Shown here: piece by piece, positions 8,666 through 25,261 of the stretch
Layout: each line of letters starts with the position of its first letter
How positions within the stretch are numbered: the stretch's first letter is position 1
NCBI GenBank assembly: GCA_963551735.1
Contig: CAUVHH010000001.1
Span: forward strand, 211,381-275,380
Direction of reading: 5' to 3'
Length of the DNA stretch: 64,000 nt
From: an uncultured Candidatus Saccharibacteria bacterium
GTDB lineage: Bacteria; Patescibacteriota; Saccharimonadia; Saccharimonadales; Saccharimonadaceae
Notes under the pieces: generated by a model
What the model was told of the DNA's origin: nothing
The model's database searches: none
The model's input: the letters and a program-made list of their open reading frames with translations, nothing else
Translations under genes and position numbers: made by a program

Positions 8666-8720
8666 ATGGTTATTATACCGCTTTGGTGCTAGAATATCAT
8701 TATATAAACAGGAGGTATTT

Positions 8721-9464: not shown

Positions 9465-9475
9465 CCCTCAGGACC

Positions 9476-10999: not shown

Positions 11000-11653
11000 A
11001 TGTACTATATCAATAGGATTGAGCTGGGGCGTACTTTGGCGGGGCGCGTGAGCTATTTGAAGGGCCAGGAAGCGGTCGTTATCGCGCTGAAAGAAGATGC
11101 GCTGACAGCTTGCATTGGTTTGGCGAGCGAGATTAATGCTTGGGTGTTTCCTTTGCTTAGCAAGCGGATCATTATCCCTGGCGATCCGCGGGTGGTCGGG
11201 CTGATTGACCCGGCAGGCATGTTTACGTGGAACCCTGATCTGGAAAAACCGCAGCGCGACGGCATTGAACTAGAATCCCGCTCGGTACTGGAAGACATCA
11301 AGCGCCAGGCATTTTCTGAGCTGAATCGCATTCTCGATCAATACGGGACATTTTCTAAGGAAGGACTCAATGGAAGAGTGTTGCTGCTAACTGGCGACAT
11401 CGTCGAGGATCGGATAGAGATTGCGATGGCTTTGGAATACTTGAAGAGCGTGCGCTACAGGGCCTTATACGGGCTGGGCGGTAATGTCGATAGTACGGCG
11501 GCAGATTATTTTCACCTGCAAACCGACAAAGACGTCGCCCTGGACGTCATGACTCATATGTTTCCGGCAGAGCATTATTTTGAGCAAAAGGATAGCTACA
11601 CTCCGGAAGAGTGCCGCTTGTTAGTAACGAATATTTCGCAATATTGGACATAG
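11000..11653 (+). CDS. Phosphoribosyltransferase-fold protein, apparently degenerate (PRT-like)
   Basis: The start is at MYYINRIELG. The overall layout is like COG1926-type predicted PRTases (RTLAGRV...VVIAL...; RVLLLTGDIVEDRIEIAMALEYLK). The canonical acidic VDD-x-x-TG PRPP loop is replaced by LTGDIVEDR. Confidence 0.5.
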   Translation: MYYINRIELGRTLAGRVSYLKGQEAVVIALKEDALTACIGLASEINAWVFPLLSKRIIIPGDPRVVGLIDPAGMFTWNPDLEKPQRDGIELESRSVLEDIKRQAFSELNRILDQYGTFSKEGLNGRVLLLTGDIVEDRIEIAMALEYLKSVRYRALYGLGGNVDSTAADYFHLQTDKDVALDVMTHMFPAEHYFEQKDSYTPEECRLLVTNISQYWT

Positions 11654-11668
11654 AAAGGAATAATTATT

Positions 11669-12868
11669 ATGAATCCAAATCCGTTTATATCAGCAGACCA
11701 AGAACCAGCGCCAGCTCAGTCGGATTCGCCGGCAGACAATAGTGCGTCCGCAGCTATGCCAGAAGCGCAATCTCAACCGGTAACCGAGCCGGTAGCAGAA
11801 TCTCAGCCTGTAACCACACTAGCAGCACAATCCCAGTCTGCCGCACAGCCAGCAGCGCAATTTCAACCTGCGTCTGCGCCGATTAGCGACGACGAGCTAG
11901 CCACAGCTAACCAAAGTATCCAGACTGTTTTCGACGCCTTCTCGTCGCGGGTGGTCGGACAAGAGAACTTACGGACGGCGTTGATGGTGAGCTTGATGAC
12001 TGGCGGGCATATTCTACTGGAAAGCGTGCCAGGTCTTGCCAAAACGACAGCCGTGCAGACGCTAGCCGCCAGCGTCCACGGCTCGTTCAAGCGTATTCAA
12101 TGCACGCCAGACCTACTACCAAGCGACATCATCGGTACGCAGATTTACGATCATAACAAGGGCGAATTTCGCACCGAGCTAGGCCCAGTTCACGCCAATT
12201 TCGTACTACTGGACGAAATTAACCGCTCCAGCGCCAAAACTCAAAGCGCCATGCTGGAAGCGATGCAGGAAAAGCAAACCAGCATCGGCGGACAACGCTA
12301 CGATTTGCCGAAGCCTTTCATCGTGCTGGCCACTCAGAACCCGATTGAACAGGAAGGAACTTACGAGCTGCCAGAGGCGCAGCTAGACCGCTTTTTGTTG
12401 AAAGAAGTTTTGTCCTACCCTGCTCCGGACGAGGAATTAGAGATTTTGAAACGCATAGAATCGGGCAAGTTAAGCGAGGCACCGAATAATAGCAACACGC
12501 CGAATATCGAACTGGCAGCAGTCGAGACGCTGCAAAACTTGGCGCAAAAAATATACATTGACGACGCTATTAAGAATTATATTGTGAAAATTGTCTCGGC
12601 AACGCGCAATCCAGCCTCAATCATACCAAGCGAAACGGCGCGCTACGTCCAATACGGCGCCAGCCCGCGCGCCAGCATTGCTTTCCAACAAGTCGCCAAA
12701 GCCCTAGCCCTCATCAACGGCCGCAACTATGTTATTCCAGAGGATGTCAAACAATTGCGCCACAGCGTATTGCGCCACCGCATTATCCTCAACTTTGAAG
12801 CCATCGCTGACCAAGTTCATCCAGAAGTTATCATTGATTCGATATTTAACGCTGTTCCTGTGCCGTAA
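11669..12868 (+). CDS. MoxR-family AAA+ ATPase with ~75-aa S/Q/P/A-rich N-terminal extension
   Basis: Walker A LLESVPGLAKTT, Walker B FVLLDEINR, and ATQNPIEQEGTYELPEAQLDRF are classic MoxR/AAA_3 motifs. AAAGGAA lies before the ATG. Confidence 0.9.
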   Translation: MNPNPFISADQEPAPAQSDSPADNSASAAMPEAQSQPVTEPVAESQPVTTLAAQSQSAAQPAAQFQPASAPISDDELATANQSIQTVFDAFSSRVVGQENLRTALMVSLMTGGHILLESVPGLAKTTAVQTLAASVHGSFKRIQCTPDLLPSDIIGTQIYDHNKGEFRTELGPVHANFVLLDEINRSSAKTQSAMLEAMQEKQTSIGGQRYDLPKPFIVLATQNPIEQEGTYELPEAQLDRFLLKEVLSYPAPDEELEILKRIESGKLSEAPNNSNTPNIELAAVETLQNLAQKIYIDDAIKNYIVKIVSATRNPASIIPSETARYVQYGASPRASIAFQQVAKALALINGRNYVIPEDVKQLRHSVLRHRIILNFEAIADQVHPEVIIDSIFNAVPVP

Positions 12869-12869
12869 T

Positions 12870-13751
12870 ATGCCAAGTCTCTTCGCCAAAGTCAAAGCTA
12901 AGATGGATCTCTACGCCCATGAAAAGGTGCGGAGTTTGCTGGATGGTCAATACGGCTCGGTATTTAAGGGGCGCAGCCTTGATTTTGATGACTTGCGCGA
13001 ATACATTCCTGGCGACGATGTAAAAGATATCGACTGGAAAGCGACTGCCCGCAGCAGCGGTATTCGAATCCGGCGCTACCAAGCAATCCGCAAGCATAAT
13101 ATTTTACTAGTAGTCGATACTGGTCGCCACATGGCAGCGACCAGTAAAAGCGGCAGCAGTAAGCGCGACATCAGTATCATGACCGCCGGAGTCTTGGGTT
13201 ATATCGTATTACGGCACGGCGATTTGATCGGACTGGTATCTGGCGACGCCAAGAATAACACCTATATTCCTTTCAAAAGCGACGACCGGCATATTGAGCA
13301 GTTACTGCGGCATATCGAGAAAAGTACTCAGCTGGCAGCCGAATCAAGCAATATTGTCAATCAGCTTGAGTACATCGCGCGCAATTTGCGGCGAAAAATG
13401 ATGCTGGTGGTAATTGCTAACGACGACGAACTGACTGGCGAGCATCAGCACATCATCCGGCGGCTGCGCGCCCAGCACGAAATATTATGGATAACAGTCA
13501 ACGACACTTCAGGGCTTGACGGTAGCCGCGATTTTTATGATATCGACGATTTGGCCGAGCTGCCTTATTTTATCCGCAAGCAAACGCGCCTGCAAGACGA
13601 TTTCGACCGCCAGCAGCAATCATACTACCGCGAATATTCCACCGCGCTGGAGCGCTTGGGTGTCGTGAGCGAGCGAATTTCCGGAGAGCAAGACGTTATC
13701 GGCAGCTTCTTCTCGCTGCTAGAAAGGCAAAAACATGCGCGGTGGCACTGA
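12870..13751 (+). CDS. DUF58-family protein (MoxR-operon partner, VWA-like fold)
   Basis: The start is at MPSLFAKV (ATG 12870), giving a TAATATG junction with the MoxR stop. The diagnostic DUF58 stretch is GSVFKGRSLDFDDLREYIPGDDVKDIDWKATAR. Confidence 0.8.
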   Translation: MPSLFAKVKAKMDLYAHEKVRSLLDGQYGSVFKGRSLDFDDLREYIPGDDVKDIDWKATARSSGIRIRRYQAIRKHNILLVVDTGRHMAATSKSGSSKRDISIMTAGVLGYIVLRHGDLIGLVSGDAKNNTYIPFKSDDRHIEQLLRHIEKSTQLAAESSNIVNQLEYIARNLRRKMMLVVIANDDELTGEHQHIIRRLRAQHEILWITVNDTSGLDGSRDFYDIDDLAELPYFIRKQTRLQDDFDRQQQSYYREYSTALERLGVVSERISGEQDVIGSFFSLLERQKHARWH

Positions 13752-14214
13752 GCTTCGCGAATGGGTTGATTACGATCCGCTGTGGCTGGTTATCGGCTGC
13801 TTGCTTTTAAGCGCGATTATTTTATGGTACGGATTTGTGTTTTATTCTACTCGCCGCCGCTCCCACCGCAGCCTGGCTACGCTTAAACCAAAACCATACA
13901 CGCCGCCAGATCTGACTGATTTGAAGCAGAAATACCAACGGCTAATTGATGAAATTGAACAGAAATACACCGCCAAAGAATTATCTTCGCGCAAAGCTCA
14001 CCAGCAATTAAGCCGCGCGCTGCGGATGTTCGTCGTCGAGATAAACGGCCACCGCGTCGATACGCTGACATTACAAGATTTAGAGAAAACCCGTTACAAA
14101 ACGCTGGCGGCGGCGATCGAAAAGTTTTACATTCCCGAATTTACCGCAGTTGAGCAAGGCAGCGTCGCCGAGGCGGCGGCATTAGCCAGAAAGACGGTAG
14201 CGGCATGGAATTAG
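13735..14214 (+). CDS. Single-pass membrane protein, positionally equivalent to DUF4381-type proteins of MoxR/Bat operons
   Basis: 159-aa ORF that overlaps both neighbours, which suggests translational coupling. It has one TM helix (LWLVIGCLLLSAIILWYGFVFY). Confidence 0.55.
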   Translation: MRGGTELREWVDYDPLWLVIGCLLLSAIILWYGFVFYSTRRRSHRSLATLKPKPYTPPDLTDLKQKYQRLIDEIEQKYTAKELSSRKAHQQLSRALRMFVVEINGHRVDTLTLQDLEKTRYKTLAAAIEKFYIPEFTAVEQGSVAEAAALARKTVAAWN

Positions 14215-15215
14215 TTTTTTGGCAATTGTCGTTGGCGTTAATTATAATTATCGCCCTGCTGTGGTTTGCCGCGCCGACTATACTCCGCCGATACAGCCGA
14301 TCGAAACGCCATGACGCGCTTAGACAAAAACTCCCTATCGCTAATACGTCGCGGCTGCGTGCTTTCCCGCTCTACATTCAGCAGGTCAAACGGTACAAAA
14401 GACTATTATCGGTTGTACTGGGACTGCACGCACTCCTGCTGGCTATGATGATTATTCTCACTGGCCGCCCGTCGTCGGTAGCCGTCGTTTCTCCCGAGGT
14501 GAAAAATCGCGACATCGTGTTATGTCTTGACGTGTCACGGTCGATGTATGAATATGACGTAGAGATTATTAAAACTTACCGCACATTGGCGCGAAAATTT
14601 GACGGCGAACGGCTCGGTTTGGTACTGTTTGACCGCTCGCCGGCAGTGATATTTCCTTTGACAGACGACGCCAGCCTAATTGACAGTAAGCTAGCGCTGA
14701 TTGAAAAGGCATTGACACCGCCTGGAACGTTAGAATATTTTGACATTTTATCTGGCACGGCAGTTTCGAACGGGCAAGGCTCGTCACTAATCGGCGACGG
14801 ACTAGCGAGTTGTATCGGCCGCTTCGACAAGTTGGACAGCAAACGCTCCCGAAGTATCATTTTAGGAACCGACAATCAACTAGCTGGCGCGCCGATAATT
14901 TCCCTGCCCGAGGCAGCAGAACTCGCCAAACAAAAAGATATCCGCGTATACGGCATTTACCCGAATAGTAATAAAAATCGCGAGGCCGAAGCGGCAGAAT
15001 TGAAGCGAACCATGCTGGCGACGAGCGGCGATTACTACGCACTGCGCGACAAAAACACAATTCCAAACATTGTCCAAAAAATCGCCGCCCAAGATGCTTC
15101 CCGATTCAAAGGCACGCCGCGCGTTACTCGCACCGATCAGCCGCAATTATTACTATACGGCATGCTTATCATCATAATTTCCCTCATTATTATCGATTGG
15201 AGGCTTCGCATATGA
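14205..15215 (+). CDS. VWA-domain membrane protein (BatA-like)
   Basis: N-terminal TM helices precede a MIDAS-type motif DIVLCLDVSRSM...GSSLIGDGLA...IILGTDN, followed by a C-terminal TM helix. Confidence 0.8.
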   Translation: MELVFWQLSLALIIIIALLWFAAPTILRRYSRSKRHDALRQKLPIANTSRLRAFPLYIQQVKRYKRLLSVVLGLHALLLAMMIILTGRPSSVAVVSPEVKNRDIVLCLDVSRSMYEYDVEIIKTYRTLARKFDGERLGLVLFDRSPAVIFPLTDDASLIDSKLALIEKALTPPGTLEYFDILSGTAVSNGQGSSLIGDGLASCIGRFDKLDSKRSRSIILGTDNQLAGAPIISLPEAAELAKQKDIRVYGIYPNSNKNREAEAAELKRTMLATSGDYYALRDKNTIPNIVQKIAAQDASRFKGTPRVTRTDQPQLLLYGMLIIIISLIIIDWRLRI

Positions 15216-16213
15216 TAATGCAACCGATTTTGCCGTGGTATCTGCTACTGATAATTCTGGTAGTTGCTGCAATTTTTACAGGTTGGAGAATTTTTTCCAA
15301 ACCAACATCTAACTGGCGAGCGTGGCTGCGGCGGTTCTGTATTGTCTTGCTTATCATTACCGCTTGTTTTCGCCCAGCTATTCCTGGCGAGATGAAAGAA
15401 TGGGGTGCGCCGCTAGTCGATGTTTATGTTGTCATAGACACAACGATGAGTTCTGCTGCCGAGGATTATGATAACGGCCAGCCGCGAATTAACGGCATGC
15501 GCCGCGACGCCAAAGAAATTGCCAAAAAGTTGGTTGGCGCGCGATTTAGCTTAATAACTTTCAATAATAAAACCTTTGTTGATTCGCCGTTATCGACAGA
15601 TGTCAGAATGTTTGAATCGGCAGTTGACACAGTAAATATCATAAGCGAAAGCTACGCCATGGGCAGCTCAATTGATACACCGATTGACACCATCGCTTCG
15701 GAAATTACTCGCACCAAGCATAAAAATCCCGAGCGCACCTCGCTGCTATTTTACCTGGGCGACGGCGAACAAACCAGCGATGCCTCGCCAAAATCATTTG
15801 CCAGCTTAAAACCCCTACTGGGCGGCGGCGCGATCATGGGATACGGCACTGCCGACGGCGGAAAAATGAAAACGCCAAGCTACAGCGGCGGCTTTGACGG
15901 TTTTTACTTGCGCGGGCCAGATTTGAAATATGCCGTATCAAAAATCGACGAGACAAATCTTAAAAACATCGCCAGTCAAACAGGCCTGCCGTATACGCAC
16001 CGGCAAACCCCAGATTCCATTGACGCCGTCGTCAAGAATGGTTCCGTCGACAAAGCCGTCAATAGCAGCCGCTCGTTCGACGGCTACAACGATATCTATT
16101 GGATAGCGATATTTGCGGCTGCTGTTTTGCTGGCCTTTGAAATCAGAAATATCTATTTACCTCTATGCAAACTTCAGAATATAATGCCGTCGGAGGGAGA
16201 AAATCGTGAGTAA
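15212..16213 (+). CDS. VWA-domain membrane protein (BatB-like)
   Basis: The start is at ATGATAATG, overlapping the previous stop (ATGA). It has TM helices, then VYVVIDTTMSSAAED...FYLGDGEQT, and a C-terminal TM helix. Confidence 0.75.
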   Translation: MIMQPILPWYLLLIILVVAAIFTGWRIFSKPTSNWRAWLRRFCIVLLIITACFRPAIPGEMKEWGAPLVDVYVVIDTTMSSAAEDYDNGQPRINGMRRDAKEIAKKLVGARFSLITFNNKTFVDSPLSTDVRMFESAVDTVNIISESYAMGSSIDTPIDTIASEITRTKHKNPERTSLLFYLGDGEQTSDASPKSFASLKPLLGGGAIMGYGTADGGKMKTPSYSGGFDGFYLRGPDLKYAVSKIDETNLKNIASQTGLPYTHRQTPDSIDAVVKNGSVDKAVNSSRSFDGYNDIYWIAIFAAAVLLAFEIRNIYLPLCKLQNIMPSEGENRE

Positions 16214-16997
16214 GAATCGTCCATTTGACCTGAAAAAACTAGATTTTGAAAAAATCCGCCGAGAAAAACGCCGGAAACTGCTCCGCTATTCGTTCCCTGC
16301 TTGCGCGGTGATTCTGCTGGTTGCTATTAAATTGACGAGTTTTCCCCTGCTGTCGCTAGCAGCGCACGCCGCCTATAAAGACGGCGACAACAACCAGGCT
16401 TCTTTTCGCTTATCGCCAATTTATACCATGAATTTGTTTGAATCTTATAAAGTATTTTTTAACGACGGGAACGCTTTATTTAAGCAAGCCCGCTACGACT
16501 CGGCAGAAAAACAATTCCGACAAGCCTTGCAAAAAGCGCCAAAAACGCGCGAATGCCCTGTCCGCATCAACTTGGCGCTGTCAATCGAGGCGCAAGCAGA
16601 CGCCCTCGCCAGCGAAAAACACTACGACCGGGCAATCATCCGCTACGACGAAGCAAACGCCGTACTGCACGACGGCGAGGATAGTTGCGGCGTGCAATTT
16701 GCCAGCCAAACAGTCGACGCGAATAATGACGATGGCAAAACTGCGATCGCCATCGAGCAGCGAATCCGCCAAAAACTAGCGCAGATAAAGCAGCTCAGGA
16801 ACGGCGACCAAGGTGTTTTGGTCACCAACCCCGGCGATAAAGAAAAAATCGACGCGGGCAGCACCGACGGCAAACTGAAAGAGCTCGACAAGCGATTCAT
16901 CGACGCCTACAACGAACAGCGCAAATCACAGGAAAGAAGCCAAAATACGCAAGACTACAAAGACGCTACGCCGGATTATACGAAGAGGAATTGGTGA
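16206..16997 (+). CDS. TPR-like repeat membrane protein (BatC-like)
   Basis: GTG start, preceded by GGAGGGAG. It has an N-terminal TM helix. Helical repeats such as GNALFKQARYDSAEKQFRQALQKAP and YDRAIIRYDEANAVL look TPR-like. Confidence 0.55.
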   Translation: MSKNRPFDLKKLDFEKIRREKRRKLLRYSFPACAVILLVAIKLTSFPLLSLAAHAAYKDGDNNQASFRLSPIYTMNLFESYKVFFNDGNALFKQARYDSAEKQFRQALQKAPKTRECPVRINLALSIEAQADALASEKHYDRAIIRYDEANAVLHDGEDSCGVQFASQTVDANNDDGKTAIAIEQRIRQKLAQIKQLRNGDQGVLVTNPGDKEKIDAGSTDGKLKELDKRFIDAYNEQRKSQERSQNTQDYKDATPDYTKRNW

Positions 16998-17005
16998 GAA
17001 GATTG

Positions 17006-17034
17006 TTGAAATGAGCGGGTTTGTTTGCTATACT
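17006..17034 (+). promoter_or_regulatory. Strong promoter TTGAAA - 17 nt - TATACT upstream of tRNA-Gly(GCC)
   Basis: Hexamers are at 17006-17011 and 17029-17034 with an exact 17-nt spacer. An ~88-nt leader precedes the tRNA. Confidence 0.55.
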
Positions 17035-17129
17035 AATTATGTAATCGAAAGATTGAGTGCTGCATCGCGCATCGTAGGCGAGTTCGCAAAATTGCGACGC
17101 CTTGTTGGCGGAATGCGCAGCAAATATAT

Positions 17130-17205
17130 GCGGGTTTAGCTCAGTTGTTAGAGCGCTTCCTTGCCATGGAAGAGGCCAGGAGTTAGAGTCTCCTAACCCG
17201 CACCA
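17130..17205 (+). tRNA. tRNA-Gly (anticodon GCC), CCA encoded; unusual U19/A56
   Basis: Hand fold: GCGGGTT-TA-GCTC-AGTTGTTA-GAGC-G-CTTCC-TTGCCAT-GGAAG-AGGCC-AGGAG-TTAGAGT-CTCCT-AACCCGC-A-CCA. Confidence 0.9.
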
Positions 17206-17216
17206 ATTTGTAATAT

Positions 17217-17238
17217 CGAGCTTTAAGCTCGGTTTTTT
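17217..17238 (+). terminator. Intrinsic terminator after tRNA-Gly(GCC)
   Basis: Hairpin CGAGCT-TTA-AGCTCG is followed by G and T6. Confidence 0.6.
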
Positions 17239-17287
17239 AATATATTAATGTTTTAAATTGGTGAATATAGTTCTATACTAATATTGC

Positions 17288-19303
17288 ATGAATAAAAATA
17301 GCGAAAAACTTATCAGAAGAGAGTCCGAGTTAAAAAGGTTAAACGATTTCCTGTCAAATTCCAAAGGAGGTTCTATCCTACTTGCTGGAGATAGGGGTTC
17401 GGGAAAAACAACTCTTGTTAATCTTGCAATCACGAAATTTCGTGAAAATCAAAAACCTAAATTTTTACGACGGCTTTTTCTAGACAACCAGATAGTTCTA
17501 TATATACCATTAATTATTCAATCATTCGATCCTAACAATAAGAGCAAGCAAGAAGAGCTCCCGTACAGGAGACTTTTGCTAAGAACCATAGCTAGAAGTA
17601 TGGAAAGTGAACTACTTACTAGGCGATATAGCAAGCTTGATTTACCTATGAGATGGTTCCGCTCAATTGGCTACATACAATCAGTACGCAAGCTAAAACC
17701 CTTAGTTGATAGTACCAACTTAGTGCGTGAATTATCCAGCAAAGGCAGCCTGAAAAGTCTCGGAAGCATATCATACAATTGGCAGCAAAATATTGATATC
17801 TCTGATGCTGTCATTGAAATGAAGCTAAGAGGTATATTTACAACATATTCAAAAAGCAACTCGATCATTATTGTTATTGATGAGCTAGATAAGCTTGAGG
17901 ATATGGGATTCAAGCCCGAAAGTATTGCGCTATTACTCAAGAACCTATTCAATGACACTGGCGTACATGTCATATTCATCTCAAATGAGCCAACAATAAA
18001 TCGCGTTCAGCAAAGAATAAAACAAGAACCGTTTTGTGCGGAACATACATTGTTTAGAGATATAATTCTCCTAAATCACCTACATCCATCTGAAATGGTC
18101 AATATTATCAATGAGGAAATCCAGAATTTGTCTAAGGCAGACAAGAGACAAGCGATTGCTTCCATGAGCCTAATATCGCAGTTAATGCCTTATAATATTT
18201 CCCTCTTACGGCAAAAGCTCGGTATTGATGGCGAGAATATTCTTTCTAAATTACAAAACGAGCTCGGGGATTATCGGTACCTTTATGAGTCAACGATACA
18301 TCTGTTTATAAACCATCTATATGAAAAATATTCCAAAAACTACGATCAATACCATAATCGCATACTATACAAAGCCTTGACCGAGGCAAGCAATAACCTA
18401 TTTAATCGTGAAATACGCTACATTAATTGGGAAACTATCGATTCAATATTTTATACTTCAAATATATTTATAAATTTACAAAATGAACTCATGGTGAAAG
18501 ATAAAGGAGAATATGAAGGTCAAATAGAAGACTGGCCAGATATTTGTATTCAGCTTCAAACCCTTAATGATCACGAACAGAAACATATACTAAATGCTGT
18601 CGAAGAATTAGTGGCAGTGCTTGATAGAGCTGGTTACTTGGATATGGAATTTGATTCTGGATATCCAACGATGCTGAACTTTAAGGCTTTTATGGGTGAT
18701 GCGTTCACTATAGTCAATATCAAGGACCATATAGATGACTACCTTGCTCCGACCAACAAAGAAAAAAGCATAGTAGACAATCTCAACACGATAGATGTTT
18801 TATATAAAATACTTATAGGTCGTTCTATATTTAAAGACCTTCTTTATATACCCGTTGACGAAGCGACCAGTTATAACAAGAAAATCCAAACACTTGACGG
18901 AAAAAATTATCACCGCACTATACGACCAGCTTGGAAGCCAATCAATGATCGACTTGCTGAAATTGATACTCAACTGATGAGTAGCCTTGCAAATATGATA
19001 ACGAGGGAGCTTCAAGCACGACTATATTATAGTACATTTGATATATCCTTAGACACCCAAAATTTAAGCGTAAAACTAGTCTTTAATTCAAAAACTTACA
19101 TCATACACCTTGCCTACAAGCCATGTGAACTAAATATTCTTGATTCTTATGAAAAACTATTTGTTCTGTACACTGGCAACAGGGCTCCTTTTAAGGACAA
19201 TAGCCCAAGGAAAGCTCGCCGCCAAATCAATTGCCACGGTAACTGGTCTAATCTTGAAACTGAGCTTAAAAATATAGTTTCTTATATAGACCAAAATAAG
19301 TAA
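17288..19303 (+). CDS. AT-rich orphan P-loop NTPase (AAA/STAND-like N-terminal ATPase, ~400-aa uncharacterised C-terminal region)
   Basis: 671-aa ORF. Walker A is ILLAGDRGSGKTTLV and Walker B is IIIVIDELDKLED. The N-terminal RRESELKRLNDFL lead-in resembles AAA_16/ORC-Cdc6-type STAND ATPases. One 60-nt line spot-counted at 18301 is about 27% G+C. Confidence 0.75.
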   Translation: MNKNSEKLIRRESELKRLNDFLSNSKGGSILLAGDRGSGKTTLVNLAITKFRENQKPKFLRRLFLDNQIVLYIPLIIQSFDPNNKSKQEELPYRRLLLRTIARSMESELLTRRYSKLDLPMRWFRSIGYIQSVRKLKPLVDSTNLVRELSSKGSLKSLGSISYNWQQNIDISDAVIEMKLRGIFTTYSKSNSIIIVIDELDKLEDMGFKPESIALLLKNLFNDTGVHVIFISNEPTINRVQQRIKQEPFCAEHTLFRDIILLNHLHPSEMVNIINEEIQNLSKADKRQAIASMSLISQLMPYNISLLRQKLGIDGENILSKLQNELGDYRYLYESTIHLFINHLYEKYSKNYDQYHNRILYKALTEASNNLFNREIRYINWETIDSIFYTSNIFINLQNELMVKDKGEYEGQIEDWPDICIQLQTLNDHEQKHILNAVEELVAVLDRAGYLDMEFDSGYPTMLNFKAFMGDAFTIVNIKDHIDDYLAPTNKEKSIVDNLNTIDVLYKILIGRSIFKDLLYIPVDEATSYNKKIQTLDGKNYHRTIRPAWKPINDRLAEIDTQLMSSLANMITRELQARLYYSTFDISLDTQNLSVKLVFNSKTYIIHLAYKPCELNILDSYEKLFVLYTGNRAPFKDNSPRKARRQINCHGNWSNLETELKNIVSYIDQNK

Positions 19304-19449
19304 CATGTTTGGAAACTATCCAAGTTTAAGTCTAACTACAACTAATTAGCCTTACTAGTAATTATCACCCTTATATAAGATTTACCCGCACAGATTCCAG
19401 GATGCAAACGACTATGAAACACATCGCACCGCTCCATAAAGCGCACATC

Positions 19450-20280
19450 TCAACAAAAATGCTCCACAATCTTATTGCCGGCGATGCCAAATCCAGTTAG
19501 CGTGTAAGTGCTCGACATGATGGATTGTCTGTGCGGCGGCGATTGCATCCAGGCGTTGAATGCTACGCGGCTGGTGTGCAGATCTGGCGGCGAAGTTTGC
19601 ACCAGATTCTCGGCTGGCGCGTTACAGACAGACCTCGCCTTAAGCAGTCCGTGCGGAATAGTTGTGCCTGGTTTATAATGGCTAAAATAATTATTCTCTT
19701 TCATGTCATTCGCCATCCACTGTGCTGTTCGATTAAGCGGCTCGTGCATCTTTAGTGGCTTCAGATTTTCCTTACTACGAGCATAATTAATCAGTTCAAG
19801 AATCTCCAAAGCATCTGGCGGGCCTATGTCATACTTTTTATCTTGGTCTGCTGGTTGCGGCTGCGAATTTGGAGTTGGATTTGGCTGCGAATTGCCGGGC
19901 TGCTGAGGTTGCGGAGCTGGCCGTTGGTTGTTTTTCGACGGCACGGCTGGACTCGACGGTGGTTGCGGTACTGGATTATGTTTCGGGCGTACAGGGTCGA
20001 TTCTCTGCTCTCTTTGGTTTGGCTGCAGTTTTCCAGGTTTCTTCTCTTGCTGGTTCGGCGTAGTTTGTTTAGGATTAGAGCTTGTGCTAGATTTACTGCC
20101 GTCAGAGTTATTGCTAGAATCGGAATTATCAGAGCCAGAATTAGAACTGGTAGTTGTCTTTTGCTGCTGATTAGCACTACCCGCATCTTTCGACACAGCA
20201 CGCACAGCAATATATAAGCCTATTCCTACCCCCGCTAGTATTAAAATAACTAGTATAATTACAAGTTTTTGTTTTTTCAT
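19450..20280 (-). CDS. CAP/SCP-domain (YkwD-like) secreted protein with TM anchor and S/N/P/Q low-complexity linker
   Basis: The C-terminal ILELINYARSKENLKPLKMHEPLNRTAQWMANDM...YFSH...AENL...AFNAWMQSPPHRQSIM matches CAP-domain motifs. A hydrophobic helix sits at the N-terminus. Confidence 0.8.
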   Translation of the reverse strand: MKKQKLVIILVILILAGVGIGLYIAVRAVSKDAGSANQQQKTTTSSNSGSDNSDSSNNSDGSKSSTSSNPKQTTPNQQEKKPGKLQPNQREQRIDPVRPKHNPVPQPPSSPAVPSKNNQRPAPQPQQPGNSQPNPTPNSQPQPADQDKKYDIGPPDALEILELINYARSKENLKPLKMHEPLNRTAQWMANDMKENNYFSHYKPGTTIPHGLLKARSVCNAPAENLVQTSPPDLHTSRVAFNAWMQSPPHRQSIMSSTYTLTGFGIAGNKIVEHFC

Positions 20281-20370
20281 ACTTTGATTGTAGCAAGGAA
20301 ACTGGTTATGTCAATCCGGAGGTAGCGGCCTGCAAAAATAGCCAAAGCATAGTGTATAATAATAGTCAGC

Positions 20371-20445
20371 GCGGGTATCGTATAACGGCTATTATGTATG
20401 CTTCCCAAGCATGAGACGAGGGTTCGACTCCCTCTACCCGCACCA
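20371..20445 (+). tRNA. tRNA-Gly (anticodon CCC), CCA encoded
   Basis: Hand fold: acceptor GCGGGTA/TACCCGC, anticodon arm TATGC-TTCCCAA-GCATG, T arm GAGGG-TTCGACT-CCCTC. Length 75 nt. Confidence 0.9.
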
Positions 20446-20502
20446 ATTCAAACTATTATCATGAGCCTTTAAGATAACGCTGGCACGCGTTATAATTAAA
20501 AT

Positions 20503-21666
20503 ATGAAAAGAGCTGTCACGAAGAGGCTGCTTCCACTGTATGTTGGCAAGTTCTTCTTAAGCTTTGTACTTTGGTATTCAATTGAAAAATTATTTATAAG
20601 AAGTATCGGCATCGACAATTTTGGAATTAGTTTGATCGCGATTGTTCTGCTGATATCATCCGTTCTGACCGAAATTCCATCAGGAATTATCGCGGATCGC
20701 TGGAGCCGCAAGGGTTCAATGGTGCTGGCTGGGCTGTTCTTAGGAATTAGCAGCTTGATGGCCGGCGCTAGCGATAATATCTTTATGTATGCCGCCGCTG
20801 TGACTATTTGGGGTCTTCATGATGCTTTTTCGAGCGGAACTGGCGCAGCTATGATTTACGATACGCTGCTCGAGGAGCAAGGGCACGCCAGGAACTTTAA
20901 TCGAGCGCTAGGACTATACGAGACTTTAGGTGGGATAGCGTTGATTATCAGTAACTTTTTAGGCGGCTGGATCGGCGAACACTCGCTGATACTGGCATTT
21001 AATTTAACGATTATTCCAGTTGCGGTATCTATGGTCTGTCATCTGATATATAAAGATGCAAAAATTAGCCGCGAGGTGGCTGATGAAAAACTTATCAAAC
21101 ATACTAAAAATACATTCAAATGCGTTTTCAAAAGTAAAAGCCTACTCTGGCTGATGACTGCGATTATGATAGTCTTTTGTGTCCAAAAGATGAATCGCGA
21201 AGCTTATCAGCTGTGGTATATTGCGTTGTCGGCCCCGGCGATAGTATTTGGCATCGCTGGTTCGTTCATAGAAGGCTTGGGCGGACTGGGCGGCTCGTTG
21301 GTTAAATATCTCAGCTCAAAGCAAATAAATATAGTTTTGTCGATTTTGCTAGGCTTGGCGTCGCTCGCGCTTTCGGTAGGCAGTAATTTATGGATAACTA
21401 TCGCCGCGCAGGTTTTAATAGCGGTGGTCTCGGGGGCGCTGTTATTTCATTTTACCGCACAGATACAACACCAGTTGCCGTCGCGATACCGCACAGGTTC
21501 TGGTTCGGTGATAAATGCCGTGGGGCGAATTGTCCTCATACCGCTAACGTTTGTGTTTGGAGTTTTGTCAAACCAAAGCGTTTTCATCGCTGGTTGGATG
21601 TTGGTGGTTTTATCAGGACTAGCTGTTTTCGTGCAGCTAAAGCTTGATGAGCAAGCTTCACCGTAG
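20503..21666 (+). CDS. MFS transporter
   Basis: 387 aa with about 12 hydrophobic segments. The MFS loop motif is GIIADRWSRKGSM, between TM2 and TM3. Confidence 0.8.
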   Translation: MKRAVTKRLLPLYVGKFFLSFVLWYSIEKLFIRSIGIDNFGISLIAIVLLISSVLTEIPSGIIADRWSRKGSMVLAGLFLGISSLMAGASDNIFMYAAAVTIWGLHDAFSSGTGAAMIYDTLLEEQGHARNFNRALGLYETLGGIALIISNFLGGWIGEHSLILAFNLTIIPVAVSMVCHLIYKDAKISREVADEKLIKHTKNTFKCVFKSKSLLWLMTAIMIVFCVQKMNREAYQLWYIALSAPAIVFGIAGSFIEGLGGLGGSLVKYLSSKQINIVLSILLGLASLALSVGSNLWITIAAQVLIAVVSGALLFHFTAQIQHQLPSRYRTGSGSVINAVGRIVLIPLTFVFGVLSNQSVFIAGWMLVVLSGLAVFVQLKLDEQASP

Positions 21667-21748
21667 TAGCGTACTTCCCATCCCAGCCCATCTGTGCTAC
21701 AATAAGTCACCAAAGGAAGGTCTGCTGTTAATCCCAGACCATATTTTT

Positions 21749-23578
21749 ATGAAGGACGCTAGCAAGATTCGAAATATTGCCATTATTGCCCACGTCGATC
21801 ACGGCAAAACGACCATGGTTGATGGGCTGCTCAAACAGTCGCGCACATTCCGCGACAACCAGGCTGAGATGAGCCAAGAACTAATCATGGATTCGGGCGA
21901 TCAAGAGCACGAGCGCGGTATCACCATCACCGCCAAACAGACCTCGATTTTTTACGGCGATTATAAAATCAACATCATCGACACACCGGGGCACGCCGAT
22001 TTTTCGGGCGAGGTCGAACGGACGCTACAGATGGCAGACGGTGTGCTGCTGATCGTCGATGCGCAGGAAGGGCCGATGCCGCAGACGAAGTTTGTACTTT
22101 CGAAGGCTTTAGAGCTGGGGCTAAAACCGGTAGTGGTGATCAATAAAATTGACAAACCTGCCCGGCGAATTGCCGAGGTTGAAGATGAGCTAAGCGATCT
22201 ATTTTTGGAGCTAGCGACTGATGATAGTCAGCTGCATTATCCGATTTATTATGCCGTTGGGCGCGATGGCAAGGCGTGGCGGGAGATCCCTACTGACCCG
22301 ACTGAAGACGCCGATCTCACACCAATTTTTGAAGCAATTATCAACGATATCCCGGCACCGAGTGTCACGGCTGATGGCGGTTTTCAGATGTTGGTGACCA
22401 GCCTACAGTATGACACGTTCCAGGGCAAATATGCCATTGGGCGGATTGCTCGCGGGTCGGTCAAGCGCGGCCTAGCGGTTAGCCTGATGAAACAGGGCGA
22501 AGTGTCGGGCTCAGCGCGAATTGAGAAAGTCTTTGGCTACCGCGGGCTGAACCGCGAAGAGCTTGAGGAGGCGTTTGCTGGCGACATTGTGGCACTGGTC
22601 GGTGTAGCTGAAGCGCACATTGGCGATACGATTGCTGATAAAGAACACCCCGAATCCTTGCCGGCGATTGCCATTGAAGCGCCGACGCTGAGCATGTACC
22701 TCGGCCCAAACACTAGCCCGATGAAAGGTCGCGAGGGCGAATTTACCACCTCGCGGCAAATTGGCGACCGATTGCGGCGAGAGCTGGAAACCAACGTGGC
22801 ACTGCGCGTCGAGGAAAACGGCATCGGCTTTACGGTGTCTGGCCGCGGCGAGCTGCACCTGAGCGTCTTGATCGAGACCATGCGGCGCGAAGGCTTTGAG
22901 TTTGAAGTCGGCCGTCCGCAAGTGGTCACCATCACCGAGGACGGTGTCGAAAAAGAGCCGATTGAAGAATTACAAATCGAGATTAGCAGCGAATTCATCG
23001 GCGCGATCAGCCAGGAGCTCGGTGCGCGCCACGCTGAAATGAAGTCGCAGGAAACCACCGCTAGCGGCGCTACCCGCATCACCTACGTGCTGCCGACGAG
23101 AGCGTTGATTGGTCTGCGAAACGTACTGTTGACCGCCACCAAAGGCACGGTGATCATGAATTCCCTGCCGTACGGCTATCAACCGCTGGGCGGCAAATTG
23201 CCAAAAACCCGCGGCGGCGTACTCATCGCCTTTGAAGCTGGCACCACCACGCCGTATGCGCTGCAAGCGGCCGAGGCGCGCGGCGAACTCTTGGTCGGAC
23301 CTGGCACGGAAGTGTACGCTGGGATGATCGTCGGTATTTACAACCGCCAAGAAGACATTGAAATCAACGTCTGTAAAGCTAAGCACCTGACCAACATGCG
23401 TTCCAAATCATCCGACGGCACGGTACAATTGACGCCATTTACGCAGTTTAGCCTGGAGCAATGCATCGACTTCATCGAGGACGACGAGCTGTTGGAGGTG
23501 ACGCCAAAGTCCCTGCGTCTGCGCAAACGCTACCTCGATGCCAATGAGCGAAAGCGCGCTAGCAAAAGTAAGTTTTAA
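21749..23578 (+). CDS. typA: Translational GTPase TypA/BipA
   Basis: The start is at [23 protein letters not shown] motifs DTPGH and NKID are present, and the BipA-like C-terminal region is conserved. The upstream part of the track ORF overlaps the MFS gene. Confidence 0.95.
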
Positions 23579-23611: not shown

Positions 23612-25261
23612 ATGACAAAAAAATGGCGCGACGTTAACGGATTTTATCAAATCTATCCGCGATCGTTTAAGGATTCTAATGGCGATGGCGTCGGCGATTT
23701 GCGCGGCGTAATCGATAAGCTCGATTATATTAAGGGCGGCGACAATTCGCTTGGCATTGATGCAATTTGGTTTTCGCCATTTTATCCGTCGCCGCAAGCT
23801 GATATGGGCTACGACGTGGCGAACTACTGTGATATTGATCCGATTTTCGGCTCGCTTGATGATTTCAAAGAGTTGGTCGAGAAAGCGCACGCTCGCGACA
23901 TCAAAGTAATGGTCGATTTCGTACCCAATCATACTAGCAACCAGCATCCGTGGTTTGTTGAATCGCAAAGCTCCAAGGACAACGACAAGAGCGATTTTTA
24001 CGTTTGGCGCGACGCTAAGCCTGATGGTTCAGAACCGAACAACTGGCTGAGTATTTTTGGCGGGTCGGCGTGGCAGTGGCACGAAGGGCGCCAGCAATAT
24101 TACTTACACACATTCCTGAAAGAACAGCCAGATCTCAACTGGGATAACCCTAAGGTACGCCGCGAAATGCAAGACGTACTGCGCTTTTGGCTAGATCTCG
24201 GTGTCGATGGCTTTCGAGCGGACGCGGTACGTTGGATCAGCAAAGACCCAGAGCTGCGCGACGACCCAGTCGCCGAGCACTATCACGATAAGAAACCGCC
24301 GACACAATTCGATGATTTGCAGCATAAGTACAGCCGCTTCTGGGATAACCTTTTCCCGTATTTGCGGGAGCTAACGGATATAGTTGCCTCATATCCGAAT
24401 CGAATCATGGTTTTTGAAGATTATCCAGATGAAAACTATAGCACTAGCGAACAATACTTGGGTTTTTATGGCGTCAATCCAAAAGTGTCAATGCCATTCA
24501 ATTTTGAAGGATTACACGCCAAATTTAATGCCGAGTCGATGAGCACAATCGTCAACGAATTCCAAGGCATGATCAACCCCGACGTGCACACACCCGTCTA
24601 TTGTTTTAGTAATCACGACCAATCGCGCATCGTTACGCGCTTTGGCGGCGAAAAGCAAGCTCGCTTGATTGCGTTGATGCAACTGACACTACCAGGGCTG
24701 CCAGTAATATATTACGGTGACGAGATTGGCATGAATAATGGACCAATTCGCTTTGAAGAGATCCAGGATAAGTCGGTCTTTAGCCACGGCAATGACGAAT
24801 CTGTCGGGCGCGACCCAGAACGCACGCCGATGCAATGGACGGCTGGCCAAAATGCTGGATTCAGTACCGCTAAACCATGGCTGCCAGTAAATCCTGCTTG
24901 CCAGAACGTCAATGTAGAATCAGAGCAGAACGAACCAGACTCATTTTTGGCGCTATACCGCCGCTTGTTGACGTTGCGCAGCCGCTACGAAATCCTGCGT
25001 ACTGGCGAATACGAACCGCTCAGCGATACAGACAATGACATATTTGCTTACGCGCGATGGATTGGCCGAGAGCAGCATGTCTTTGTCGCATTAAATTTCG
25101 GCGACACCAAACACCGTGTTACGCTACCACATACCGGCAGTGTCTTATGCGCCACACACCCAACCGACTACCCCGAGGTTACCGATGACGGCTCGGTAGA
25201 GCTACGCCCATACGAAGGCGTATTAATCGGATGCAGCGAGCACCGGCTATCAATTGAATAA
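23612..25261 (+). CDS. GH13 alpha-glucosidase / oligo-1,6-glucosidase family enzyme
   Basis: AGGAGGGGG RBS. GH13 conserved regions are DFVPNHTS, GVDGFRADAV, MVFED and FSNHDQSR. The N-terminus, FYQIYPRSFKDSNGDGVGDL, is typical of the oligo-1,6-glucosidase subfamily. Confidence 0.9.
   Translation: MTKKWRDVNGFYQIYPRSFKDSNGDGVGDLRGVIDKLDYIKGGDNSLGIDAIWFSPFYPSPQADMGYDVANYCDIDPIFGSLDDFKELVEKAHARDIKVMVDFVPNHTSNQHPWFVESQSSKDNDKSDFYVWRDAKPDGSEPNNWLSIFGGSAWQWHEGRQQYYLHTFLKEQPDLNWDNPKVRREMQDVLRFWLDLGVDGFRADAVRWISKDPELRDDPVAEHYHDKKPPTQFDDLQHKYSRFWDNLFPYLRELTDIVASYPNRIMVFEDYPDENYSTSEQYLGFYGVNPKVSMPFNFEGLHAKFNAESMSTIVNEFQGMINPDVHTPVYCFSNHDQSRIVTRFGGEKQARLIALMQLTLPGLPVIYYGDEIGMNNGPIRFEEIQDKSVFSHGNDESVGRDPERTPMQWTAGQNAGFSTAKPWLPVNPACQNVNVESEQNEPDSFLALYRRLLTLRSRYEILRTGEYEPLSDTDNDIFAYARWIGREQHVFVALNFGDTKHRVTLPHTGSVLCATHPTDYPEVTDDGSVELRPYEGVLIGCSEHRLSIE

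What the first reader, a model, noticed from the sequence alone, without database searches (positions are those of the whole stretch)
17194..19397. Mini-island at the 3' end of tRNA-Gly(GCC): a lone AT-rich 671-aa STAND/AAA-type NTPase bounded by a degenerate tRNA-end repeat
Seen in sequence:
1. The gene starts 83 nt after the tRNA and 50 nt after its terminator.
2. It is conspicuously AT-rich (about 27% G+C on a spot-counted line at 18301).
3. The tRNA 3' end plus flank, TAACCCGCACCAATT (17194-17208), recurs as TTACCCGCACAGATT (19382-19396), 79 nt after the stop codon. Twelve of 15 positions are identical, including the 8-nt core ACCCGCAC. This is the layout expected for attL/attR of an element integrated into a tRNA 3' end.
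4. The protein has Walker A GDRGSGKTT and Walker B IIIVIDELD in an N-terminal domain resembling ORC/Cdc6/AAA_16-type STAND ATPases. About 400 residues follow in which I recognise nothing.
5. There is no integrase, no nuclease or other effector partner, and no SD. A TATACT hexamer ends 8 nt before the ATG.

Established knowledge: tRNA 3' ends are classical integration sites, and single large STAND NTPases are a recurrent form of prokaryotic immune sensor. Inference: this is a remnant integrative islet whose only cargo is a candidate single-protein NTPase defence or conflict gene of a type I cannot place in a named system.
Basis: partly seen in the sequence, partly recalled or inferred. Interest (0 to 1): 0.7.

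Follow-up and report, generated by a model that had tools for sequence, protein, structure and literature searches.

The report
Lone NTPase in tRNA defence hotspot
An AT-rich gene for an uncharacterised ORC/Cdc6-like ATPase, exchanged between genera, sits next to a glycine tRNA where related Saccharibacteria keep assorted anti-phage systems; it is a plausible new defence gene, but its supposed integration-site repeat is a decayed amylase gene fragment.

Summary
The window comes from an oral or gut Saccharibacteria (TM7) genome. The sequence facts hold: tRNA-Gly(GCC) at 17130-17205, its terminator, and a 671-aa ORF (17288-19303) with Walker A and B motifs and 35.9% GC against 47.3% for the window.

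The attL/attR reading fails. The 12/15 match is no better than chance (334 of 2000 shuffles reach it). The supposed attR lies inside a decayed 5' fragment of an alpha-amylase gene (0 of 2000 shuffles), which relatives carrying other cargo also have.

The gene is nonetheless accessory. Only 3 of 101 informative species with the identical tRNA carry it. It is 89% identical between two clades whose flanking proteins are 41-85% identical, and only 81% identical in a close relative.

In other species the same slot holds Lamassu, Dodola, a PD-Lambda-5-like pair, a retron-type reverse transcriptase, a restriction-modification system and TIR-like genes, or is empty. It is a defence hotspot.

The protein has an AAA_16/KAP-type, ORC/Cdc6-like ATPase domain, a probable winged helix, and a fast-evolving C-terminal domain with no structural match. 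No known defence family matches it and no effector domain is recognisable.

Verdict: a candidate new single-gene defence NTPase in a hotspot, with its function untested.

The parts
17130..17205 (+). tRNA-Gly(GCC). It is the left anchor of the variable slot and is identical in at least 119 Saccharibacteria species representatives.
   Evidence: ARAGORN; Rfam, 68.6 bits; genome contigs pattern scan
17206..17244 (+). tRNA flank with terminator hairpin TCGAGCTTTAAGCTCG (17216-17231) and T-run. It is shared with loci carrying Lamassu, a reverse transcriptase or other cargo. Cargo-specific sequence starts at about 17245.
   Evidence: Terminator scan; left-junction comparison; motif coordinates
17252..17279 (+). 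Promoter-like TTTAAA-16 nt-TATACT ending 8 nt before the ATG. It is conserved in orthologous cassettes of both clades. A leaderless or very short leader mRNA is inferred.
   Evidence: Scan, 9 of 12 matches, not above chance on its own; conservation across loci
17288..19303 (+). 671-aa ORC/Cdc6-like (AAA_16/KAP-type) P-loop NTPase. The ATPase core is residues 1-262, with Walker A at nt 17387-17413 and Walker B at nt 17864-17890. A lid, helical region and probable winged helix cover residues 263-480. A fast-evolving alpha/beta C-terminal region covers residues 481-671.
19304..19373 (.). Cassette-specific spacer after the stop codon. It has no homology in relatives that carry other cargo.
19374..19435 (+). 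Decayed relic of the 5' coding end of a Nanosynbacter-type alpha-amylase (codons for YQIYPRSF...).
   Evidence: MAFFT alignment; shuffle tests; intermediate forms in L139 and L040
19450..20280 (-). CAP/YkwD-domain gene, the conserved right flank. Homology with close relatives resumes at 19436-19449.

Best explanation
The element is a promoter-bearing single-gene cassette, about 17245-19373. It occupies a variable-cargo slot between tRNA-Gly(GCC) and an alpha-amylase gene (here only a relic of one) in host-associated Saccharibacteria.

Shown:
- The slot is empty in some species. In others it holds known defence systems.
- The NTPase cassette is rare.
- It is AT-rich whatever the host GC content.
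- It is under purifying selection.
- Its phylogeny is incongruent with that of its flanks, so it moves horizontally between genera.

Inferred:
- Movement is mainly by natural transformation and homologous recombination. The invariant tRNA serves as the left homology arm and the amylase end or relic as the right arm. Serine-recombinase elements also insert at the tRNA CCA end and push older cargo distally.
- The protein is a nucleotide-dependent switch of the ORC/Cdc6/STAND-like kind. An invader-derived cue would be read by the rapidly evolving C-terminal half. This would drive ATP-dependent oligomerisation or DNA engagement through the winged helix, blocking phage replication or aborting infection.
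- No enzymatic effector domain is recognisable, so the output step is the weakest part of this explanation.

The confidence of 0.6 is for the whole statement. I put about 0.9 on the hotspot-cassette and horizontal-transfer description and about 0.55 on a defence or conflict function.
For: Presence and absence:
- The gene is present in 3 of 101 informative species loci that share the identical tRNA.
- Only 1 of 14 close relatives has it, although their upstream flanks are 89-97% identical in protein.
- Empty sites exist in L019 (78 nt) and L126 (181 nt).

Cargo of the same slot in other species:
- LmuA (2.8e-54) with LmuB (4e-127).
- DolB (2.4e-106) with DUF6414.
- PD-Lambda-5_A (1e-50) with a D12 methyltransferase.
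- RT_VI (8e-49).
- An N6_N4 methyltransferase with RAMA and SocA/Panacea domains.
- A TIR-like gene, and DUF4238.

Horizontal transfer:
- The NTPase is 89% identical in protein and 90.3% in DNA to the L007 copy. The neighbouring proteins are 41-85% identical.
- It is only 81% identical to the copy in L060, a close relative.
- dS is 0.35 and dN/dS is 0.16.
- The gene is 36% GC in hosts of both 42% and 50% GC.
- A strain-level recombination breakpoint lies at 16850. The two strains are then identical to 21807.
- Distant homologues sit in islands that also encode a large serine recombinase.
- Saccharibacteria are naturally competent and recombine homologous DNA (PMC10633639).

Protein:
- AAA_16 and KAP_NTPase score above their Pfam cut-offs.
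- The AlphaFold2 model has pLDDT 78.8 and pTM 0.74.
- Foldseek top matches are ORC1/Cdc6 (2e-6), the RADAR protein RdrA (2e-5), BrxC, CED-4 and an NLR.
- The C-terminal region has dN/dS 0.27-0.48, against 0.10-0.15 elsewhere in the protein.
Against: - No experiment exists and there is no PADLOC family for this protein. Only a mad8-like match to the ATPase core was found.
- No effector domain is recognisable. The best Foldseek E-value for the C-terminal model is 0.04, and the last 190 residues contain no invariant catalytic-looking residues.
- Hotspot association is circumstantial. Some cargos of the slot are not defence genes, for example a CsoR-like gene with DUF4396.
- The recombination route is inferred from junction anatomy, not observed.
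- The strain breakpoint lies 280 nt upstream of the tRNA, not inside it.
- 89% identity is not far above the best-conserved neighbours, the 217-aa protein at 85% and MoxR at 80%.
Confidence: 0.6

Rival explanations
1. One reading: a remnant integrative islet that entered by site-specific recombination into the tRNA-Gly 3' end and is still bounded by degenerate attL/attR copies of that end.
For: - Integrative elements really do target this tRNA end. A 2.6-kb element with a large serine recombinase (L139, L140, L147) and an nSTAND3-bearing element (L143-L145, L148) are inserted at the CCA end.
- L105, L109 and L119 have 21-33-nt duplicates of the tRNA end.
- An element with a homologous left end at tRNA-Pro (L132) lies beside a 44%-identical NTPase homologue.
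Against: - The 12/15 repeat is reached by 334 of 2000 shuffles.
- The same bases align significantly with an amylase 5' end (0 of 2000 shuffles). They form a decay series: ATTTATCCGCGCA (amylase), then ATTTATCCGCACA (L139), then ATTTACCCGCACA (window).
- The relic is present in relatives that lack the NTPase.
- The left junction is a terminator shared with other cargos, not an element end.
- Where real scars exist, they lie upstream of the NTPase cassette and include the displaced terminator.
- The Nanosynbacter-clade copies have no tRNA-end repeat downstream.
Confidence: 0.08
2. The gene is a leftover maintenance or replication protein of a mobile element (an ORC/Cdc6-like initiator, loader or partition ATPase). 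It would persist as selfish cargo, not as host defence.
For: - The best structural and sequence matches are ORC1, ORC4 and Cdc6, with a probable winged helix.
- Distant homologues lie in serine-recombinase islands.
- TnsC also appears among the fold matches.
Against: - The gene is kept intact under purifying selection as a lone gene in many lineages with no element around it.
- It has its own conserved promoter.
- No relative was found in phage, plasmid or IMG/VR viral collections.
- TIGR02928 (orc1/cdc6) scores 29.9 bits against a cut-off of 181.
- A fast-evolving C-terminus is not expected of an initiator.
Confidence: 0.12
3. The gene is an ancestral chromosomal gene of this lineage, lost in most relatives. 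Its AT-richness would reflect its own amino-acid or codon bias, not foreign origin.
For: - It sits at the same tRNA in two clades.
- Some neighbouring proteins are nearly as conserved, the 217-aa protein at 85% and MoxR at 80%.
Against: - It is found in 3 of 101 species, with the slot otherwise filled by unrelated cargo or empty.
- Identities are incongruent: 81% in the close relative L060 against 89% in the other clade.
- dS of 0.35 is low for clades whose amylase and VWA proteins are 41-50% identical.
- It has the same 36% GC in hosts of 42% and 50% GC.
Confidence: 0.04

Closest known systems
ORC/Cdc6-clade defence ATPases: RdrA of RADAR and BrxC of BREX
   Same: - The fold of the N-terminal half is similar. 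Foldseek gives RdrA 2e-5 and BrxC 1e-4, just behind ORC1/Cdc6 at 2e-6.
- It is a large ATPase of about 700 aa or more.
- It is carried in defence islands.
   Different: - RdrA works with the deaminase RdrB, and BrxC is one of six or more BREX proteins. This is from my own knowledge. Here the gene is alone in every background examined.
- TM-scores are only about 0.25.
- No PADLOC RdrA or BrxC match was found.
Single-protein STAND defence NTPases (Avs/AVAST, bNACHT)
   Same: - It is a lone large P-loop NTPase in a defence context.
- The ATPase is followed by a helical region and a probable winged helix.
- CED-4 and a plant NLR are among the fold matches.
- The C-terminal half is variable, as expected of a sensor.
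- No conserved arginine is seen at the box VII position (my reading of the alignment).
   Different: - NACHT, NB-ARC and nSTAND3 score below their Pfam cut-offs.
- No Avs or bNACHT model matches in PADLOC.
- There is no TPR, WD40 or LRR sensor and no recognisable nuclease, protease, TIR or other effector.
KAP family P-loop NTPases (PF07693)
   Same: - The Pfam score is 35.3 bits, above the cut-off of 20.
- There is a roughly 100-residue insertion between Walker A and Walker B.
   Different: Classical KAP NTPases carry transmembrane helices in that insertion (my knowledge, Aravind et al. 2004). Here the insertion is soluble and no 19-residue window exceeds a Kyte-Doolittle value of 1.36.
mad8 of the MADS defence system (best PADLOC match)
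   Same: Similarity over the ATPase core, residues 23-236, at 2.6e-9.
   Different: - mad8 is a 314-position profile and is one component of a multi-gene, methylation-associated system.
- Here the protein has 435 further residues and no partner genes.
Defence hotspots with conserved flanks and swappable cargo, such as tRNA-adjacent or core-gene-bounded integration hotspots in enterobacteria, Vibrio and Pseudomonas
   Same: - The flanks are conserved: the tRNA on the left and amylase or its relic on the right.
- The cargo is mutually exclusive and mostly AT-rich, and much of it is known defence systems.
- Empty alleles exist.
- Newer insertions stack up at the tRNA end.
   Different: - This one is in ultra-small epibiotic Saccharibacteria genomes.
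- Most cassettes have no integrase or att duplication.
- Exchange crosses genus-level divergence, apparently using a 76-nt invariant tRNA as the shared anchor. The mechanism is inferred.

Membership tests
tRNA-targeted integrative island (attL/attR-bounded) | A direct repeat of the tRNA 3' end at the distal boundary, better than chance | tested here: not met
   The 12/15 match is reached by 334 of 2000 shuffles. The bases belong to an amylase 5' relic instead, with 0 of 2000 shuffles reaching that score.
tRNA-targeted integrative island (attL/attR-bounded) | An integrase or recombinase in or next to the island | tested here: not met
   The neighbours are VWA, TPR, CAP and MFS genes, and the slot contains only the NTPase ORF. 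Recombinase-bearing elements occur at this tRNA only in other genomes.
tRNA-targeted integrative island (attL/attR-bounded) | Element-specific sequence starts directly at the tRNA crossover point | tested here: not met
   The 39 nt after CCA, including the terminator, are shared with Lamassu, reverse-transcriptase and other cargos.
Defence hotspot (variable slot between conserved flanks) | Conserved flanks with alternative, unrelated cargos and with empty alleles | tested here: met
   There are at least 7 cargo types among close relatives, and L019 and L126 are empty.
Defence hotspot (variable slot between conserved flanks) | Cargo enriched in known defence systems | tested here: met
   Lamassu, Dodola, a PD-Lambda-5-like pair, a retron-type reverse transcriptase, a restriction-modification system, a TIR-like gene and DUF4238. 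No formal enrichment statistic was computed.
STAND NTPase (NACHT / NB-ARC / nSTAND) | A match to a STAND NTPase domain model at its curated threshold | tested here: not met
   NACHT scores 22.8 against 26.7, NB-ARC 14.7 against 23.5, and nSTAND3 15.4 against 27.2. Only the generic AAA_16 passes, 37.7 against 32.6.
STAND NTPase (NACHT / NB-ARC / nSTAND) | An NTPase, helical and winged-helix tripartite module followed by a sensor, plus an effector domain | tested here: inconclusive
   The model shows an ATPase, helical bundles and an H-beta-beta wing around residues 428-468, and there are fold matches to CED-4 and an NLR. No repeat sensor or effector was found.
ORC1/Cdc6 replication initiators | A family model match (TIGR02928) at threshold | tested here: not met
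   29.9 bits against a cut-off of 181.3, over 70 residues only. Fold similarity is E 2e-6 but TMq is about 0.25.
KAP family P-loop NTPase | A Pfam PF07693 match at threshold | tested here: met
   35.3 bits against a cut-off of 20, over residues 13-243.
KAP family P-loop NTPase | Transmembrane helices inserted in the P-loop domain (typical of the family, from my own knowledge) | tested here: not met
   The maximum Kyte-Doolittle 19-residue mean is 1.36, so no transmembrane-like segment exists.
MADS (mad8) | A full-length match and the multi-gene MADS neighbourhood | tested here: not met
   The match covers residues 23-236 only, and no partner genes are present.
Anti-phage defence gene (functional class) | Confers resistance to phage or another mobile element, dependent on the Walker motifs | not testable with these tools
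   Only contextual evidence is available.

The most novel reading that the evidence does not exclude
The 671-aa family, about 35 full-length clusters at 50% identity, is a new standalone anti-phage system native to ultra-small Patescibacteria. It would be an ORC/Cdc6-like ATP switch with a new C-terminal sensing and output domain and no conventional effector. It would spread as a promoter-plus-gene cassette between genera by transformation, using an invariant tRNA gene as a universal homology arm.
Probability: 0.35. Interest if true: 0.65.

Novelty: new member of a known kind. Interest (0 to 1): 0.45.

Why it matters
Saccharibacteria have genomes of about 0.7 Mb and are thought to be poor in phage defence. 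Here a single slot next to a phylum-wide invariant tRNA carries Lamassu, Dodola, a PD-Lambda-5-like pair, a retron-type reverse transcriptase, a restriction-modification system and TIR-like genes, and this unplaced NTPase. Cassettes there are shared across genus-level divergence.

This gives a concrete place to mine new defence genes in candidate phyla radiation bacteria. The hypothesis is testable. TM7 strains are naturally transformable (PMC10633639), and phage that act on TM7x have been reported (abstract of PMC13578794).

The case is also a caution. A short tRNA-end look-alike can be a relic of a neighbouring gene and not an att site.

Tried and rejected
- attR as a tRNA-derived repeat: rejected by the shuffle test and the amylase-relic alignment.
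- Searching the variable regions of 7 close relatives for tRNA-end 7-mers found none. Exact repeats of 12 nt or more occur in only 3 of 97 loci (L105, L109, L119), and none of those carries the NTPase.
- A hidden effector in the C-terminus:
  - Pfam, NCBIfam and PADLOC find nothing beyond residue 257.
  - A separate AlphaFold2 model of residues 440-671 (pLDDT 81.5) has a best PDB Foldseek E-value of 0.04. The scattering of endonuclease-like folds (VC1899, McrC, splicing endonuclease, Bax1, Hjc) are all non-significant.
  - No D...(D/E)xK motif is conserved in the alignment. A nuclease reading was therefore not adopted.
- Sequence searches of the PDB, with the single sequence and with the profile, found only P-loop-level matches. 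The best is ORC4 at 5e-5.
- A phage or plasmid origin: no relative was found in INPHARED, PLSDB or IMG/VR.
- Ten more distant relatives (684-1270 aa) were scanned for informative domains. Only AAA_16 and KAP_NTPase were found, plus pentapeptide repeats in one.
- The nSTAND3-element proteins and the serine recombinase have no PADLOC match.
- No empty site was found in the window's own clade. Every sampled relative carries some cargo.
- Rfam finds nothing but the two tRNAs in 16900-20600.
Full report
**1. Observation**

The window contains tRNA-Gly(GCC) at 17130-17205. A terminator hairpin follows at 17215-17233 with a T-run. The ORF at 17288-19303 encodes 671 aa.

Walker A (GDRGSGKTT) is residues 34-42 and Walker B (IIIVIDELD) is residues 193-201. 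Pfam places AAA_16 (3.7e-9) and KAP_NTPase (9.6e-9) on residues 7-243 and finds nothing beyond.

The gene is 35.9% GC (GC3 34.1%) against 47.3% for the window and about 50% for the flanking operons. It is the lowest 2-kb stretch of the 64 kb.

TATACT at 17274-17279 ends 8 nt before the ATG, and there is no SD. The neighbours are a MoxR/DUF58/VWA/TPR operon upstream, and a CAP/YkwD gene, tRNA-Gly(CCC), MFS, BipA and alpha-amylase genes downstream. All of these descriptive points are correct.

**2. The att repeat does not hold**

The two 15-mers do match at 12 of 15 positions. However, a local match this good between the 146-nt spacer and the tRNA 3' half is reached by 334 of 2000 shuffles. ACCCGCAC occurs five times in the window.

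A multiple alignment of the right junction with close relatives shows what the sequence is. The segment 19374-19419 aligns with a decayed 5' fragment of an alpha-amylase gene, the codons for YQIYPRSF.

- Against the amylase start of the Nanosynbacter-clade locus L007 it matches at 33 of 46 positions. No shuffle of 2000 reaches that score.
- Relatives L040, L061, L111, L043, L023, L139 and L144 carry the same relic beside the CAP gene, better preserved, with scores of 18-38 and 0 of 500 shuffles.
- There is a visible decay series: ATTTATCCGCGCA in the amylase, ATTTATCCGCACA in L139, and ATTTACCCGCACA in the window.
- Those relatives mostly lack the NTPase, so the relic is a property of the slot's right border, not of this cassette.
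- The relic is closer to the Nanosynbacter-type amylase than to the window clade's own amylase at 23612-25261, which scores only 10-13.

**3. Organism and comparative picture**

An exact-pattern scan for the tRNA found at least 119 species-representative loci. Nearly all are labelled Saccharibacteria, TM7 or Nanosynbacter.

Of the 101 loci with at least 600 nt downstream, only L016, L060 and L120 encode the NTPase. Fourteen species share the window's upstream flank, with TPR/VWA proteins 89-97% identical. Of those, only L060 has the gene. In the others the CAP gene lies 2.5-4.5 kb from the tRNA, with different DNA between.

In the Nanosynbacter-type clade the tRNA has the compensatory A7/T66 variant and the downstream neighbour is an intact amylase. 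There the interval ranges from 78 nt (L019) and 181 nt (L126), effectively empty, up to 4.2 kb.

The cargos found in the slot are:

| Loci | Cargo | Support |
|---|---|---|
| L040, L052, L061 | Lamassu: LmuA + LmuB | 2.8e-54; 4e-127 |
| L045 | PD-Lambda-5_A + D12 methyltransferase | 1e-50 |
| L111 | Dodola: DolB + DUF6414; also DUF4238 | 2.4e-106 |
| L054 | Retron-type reverse transcriptase, RT_VI | 8e-49 |
| L073 | N6_N4 methyltransferase/RAMA restriction-modification, with HTH-SocA/Panacea | |
| L030, L078 | TIR-like proteins | |
| Several others | Unknown proteins; one CsoR-like + DUF4396 pair | |

Cargo GC is 0.34-0.44 against 0.40-0.50 for the flanks. This is a defence hotspot.

**4. Horizontal transfer**

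- The window's NTPase is 89% identical in protein, and 90.3% in DNA from the tRNA to the gene end, to the L007 copy. The surrounding proteins are 41-85% identical: amylase 45%, VWA 41-50%, MoxR 80%.
- It is only 81% identical to the L060 copy, although L060's flanks are 90-96% identical to the window's. That is incongruent with vertical descent.
- dN/dS is 0.16-0.21, so the gene is functional.
- The gene is about 35% GC in hosts of both 42% and 50% GC.
- Two metagenomic strains, L001 and L002, differ from the window by 5-13% up to position 16850. They are then identical to 21807. This recombination breakpoint lies 280 nt upstream of the tRNA.
- Further backgrounds (L139-L153) again place the gene in this slot. 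L152 is the one exception, where the gene faces an inverted amylase.

**5. How cargo gets in**

The 39 nt after the tRNA CCA, including the terminator, are shared by the NTPase, Lamassu, reverse-transcriptase and L032/L047 cargos in both clades. These cargos diverge just after TTTTTAATATA at about 17244. No direct repeats flank these cassettes.

Saccharibacteria are naturally competent and integrate DNA by homologous recombination (PMC10633639). I therefore infer cassette exchange by transformation. The invariant tRNA would be the left arm and the amylase end or relic the right arm. The foreign-type amylase relic in the window's clade suggests an ancestral import anchored on the tRNA side only. 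This is an inference.

A second route is demonstrable in other genomes. In L139, L140 and L147 a 2.6-kb element with a large serine recombinase sits at the CCA end. In L143-L145 and L148 an nSTAND3-bearing element does the same. In both cases a displaced TTCCGCACCA or ACCCGCACCA plus the original terminator lies immediately upstream of the NTPase cassette. These are what real scars at this tRNA look like, and they are on the other side of the gene.

The left end of the serine-recombinase element recurs at tRNA-Pro in L132. There the island contains a 44%-identical NTPase homologue. P0034 also lies in such an island. The family is therefore mobile cargo more broadly. No relative occurs in phage, plasmid or IMG/VR collections.

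**6. The protein**

The family is small. There are about 35 full-length clusters at 50% identity, followed by 750-850-aa relatives that share only profile positions about 150-400. A source labels it 'hypothetical' or 'KAP family P-loop'.

Invariant residues are the N-terminal R11, AGDRGSGKT, DELDK, LKNLF and T254-L255, plus scattered residues as far as Y506. The AlphaFold2 model has pLDDT 78.8 and pTM 0.74. It shows four parts:

- an AAA+ core with a soluble helical insertion at residues 90-187;
- helical bundles;
- a helix-beta-beta wing around the conserved LDRAGYLD motif (residues 445-452);
- a long helix and a six-stranded alpha/beta C-terminal domain.

Foldseek matches ORC1/Cdc6 (2e-6), RdrA of RADAR (2e-5), BrxC, CED-4, an NLR and TnsC. 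TMq is about 0.25, so only the N-terminal half is matched. Viral matches are generic AAA+ proteins.

The C-terminal model (pLDDT 81.5) has no significant PDB neighbour. There are no transmembrane segments. NACHT, NB-ARC, nSTAND3 and TIGR02928 are all below threshold. PADLOC gives only mad8 over the ATPase core.

The C-terminal 190 residues evolve two to four times faster than the rest, with dN/dS of 0.27-0.48 against 0.10-0.15. The gene is alone in every background examined.

**7. Mechanism**

- Shown: a functional, mobile, promoter-bearing single gene for a P-loop NTPase sits in a defence hotspot.
- Inferred: it is an ATP-dependent switch. A cue would be sensed by the variable C-terminal half. 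This would drive oligomerisation or DNA engagement through the winged helix, blocking invader replication or aborting infection.
- The output step is unknown, because no effector is recognisable.
- I put about 0.55 on a defence or conflict function and about 0.9 on the hotspot-cassette and horizontal-transfer description.

**8. Novelty and verdict**

The kind of element is known: a lone NTPase in a defence hotspot beside a tRNA. The family is unplaced and untested, and the hotspot in Saccharibacteria appears undescribed in the searchable literature. No paper in the library holds both the terms 'Saccharibacteria' and 'Lamassu'.

The accessory and defence intuition is reasonable. The attL/attR anatomy is wrong.

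Noticed in passing
window 8658-10837 (+): A second AT-rich patch (GC 0.29-0.33) lies between tRNA-Phe (7806-7881, minus strand) and the MoxR operon. It encodes an SPFH/Band7 protein (1e-43) and a 453-aa ApeA-like HEPN protein (Pfam 2.5e-16; PADLOC PDC-S58 4e-26). It is probably another defence islet.
   Followed up: partly
window 19374-19435, and the equivalent site in L040, L061, L111, L043, L023, L139 and L144: A relic of a Nanosynbacter-type amylase 5' end lies beside the CAP gene, although this clade's own intact amylase is 4 kb away at 23612-25261. This suggests an old cross-genus import of the slot, anchored on the tRNA side.
   Followed up: partly
window 16850 / 16851-21807, compared with L001 and L002: There is a sharp recombination breakpoint between strains. 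Divergence is 5-13% upstream of 16850, and the strains are then identical for about 5 kb across the tRNA, NTPase, CAP, tRNA-Gly(CCC) and MFS genes.
   Followed up: yes
L139 1296-3908 (also L140, L147); L132 2328 onward: A 2.6-kb element with a large serine recombinase is inserted at the CCA end of tRNA-Gly(GCC), leaving the direct repeat CCGCACCA. Its left end (AAACGAAAT...GAACCCTTxCCAGGGTTC) recurs at tRNA-Pro in L132. That island carries a 44%-identical NTPase homologue.
   Followed up: partly
L143/L144 1-3767; L145; L148: A large nSTAND3-like gene or genes (1252 aa, or 523 + 902 aa) is inserted between the tRNA and the NTPase cassette. A displaced ACCCGCACCA plus terminator scar follows it. 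There is no PADLOC match.
   Followed up: partly
L105 +100..+170, L119 +100..+170, L109 +1470..+1520 (positions relative to the tRNA end): There are 21-33-nt duplicates of the tRNA-Gly 3' end, each preceded by a conserved hairpin (AGCCAGxAG...CTGGCTGGGTCAAGAG). In L109 the duplicate bounds a 1.5-kb islet. These are genuine att-type duplications in other species.
   Followed up: no
L007-L012 compared with window 11000-17205: The MoxR-DUF58-VWA-TPR operon is inverted relative to the tRNA cluster between the two clades. In the Nanosynbacter-type clade, tRNA-Gly(CCC), tRNA-Phe and tRNA-Gly(GCC) are adjacent.
   Followed up: no
L152 6281-9623: Here the NTPase faces an inverted amylase gene, and no match to the tRNA-Gly(GCC) pattern was found in the 8 kb upstream. 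It is the only background seen outside the usual arrangement.
   Followed up: no
L060/L077, L015/L118, L022: Two MAGs each contribute two different tRNA-Gly(GCC) contexts, so they may be mixed bins. One contig carrying the TM7 tRNA is labelled Dokdonella and is probably mis-binned.
   Followed up: no
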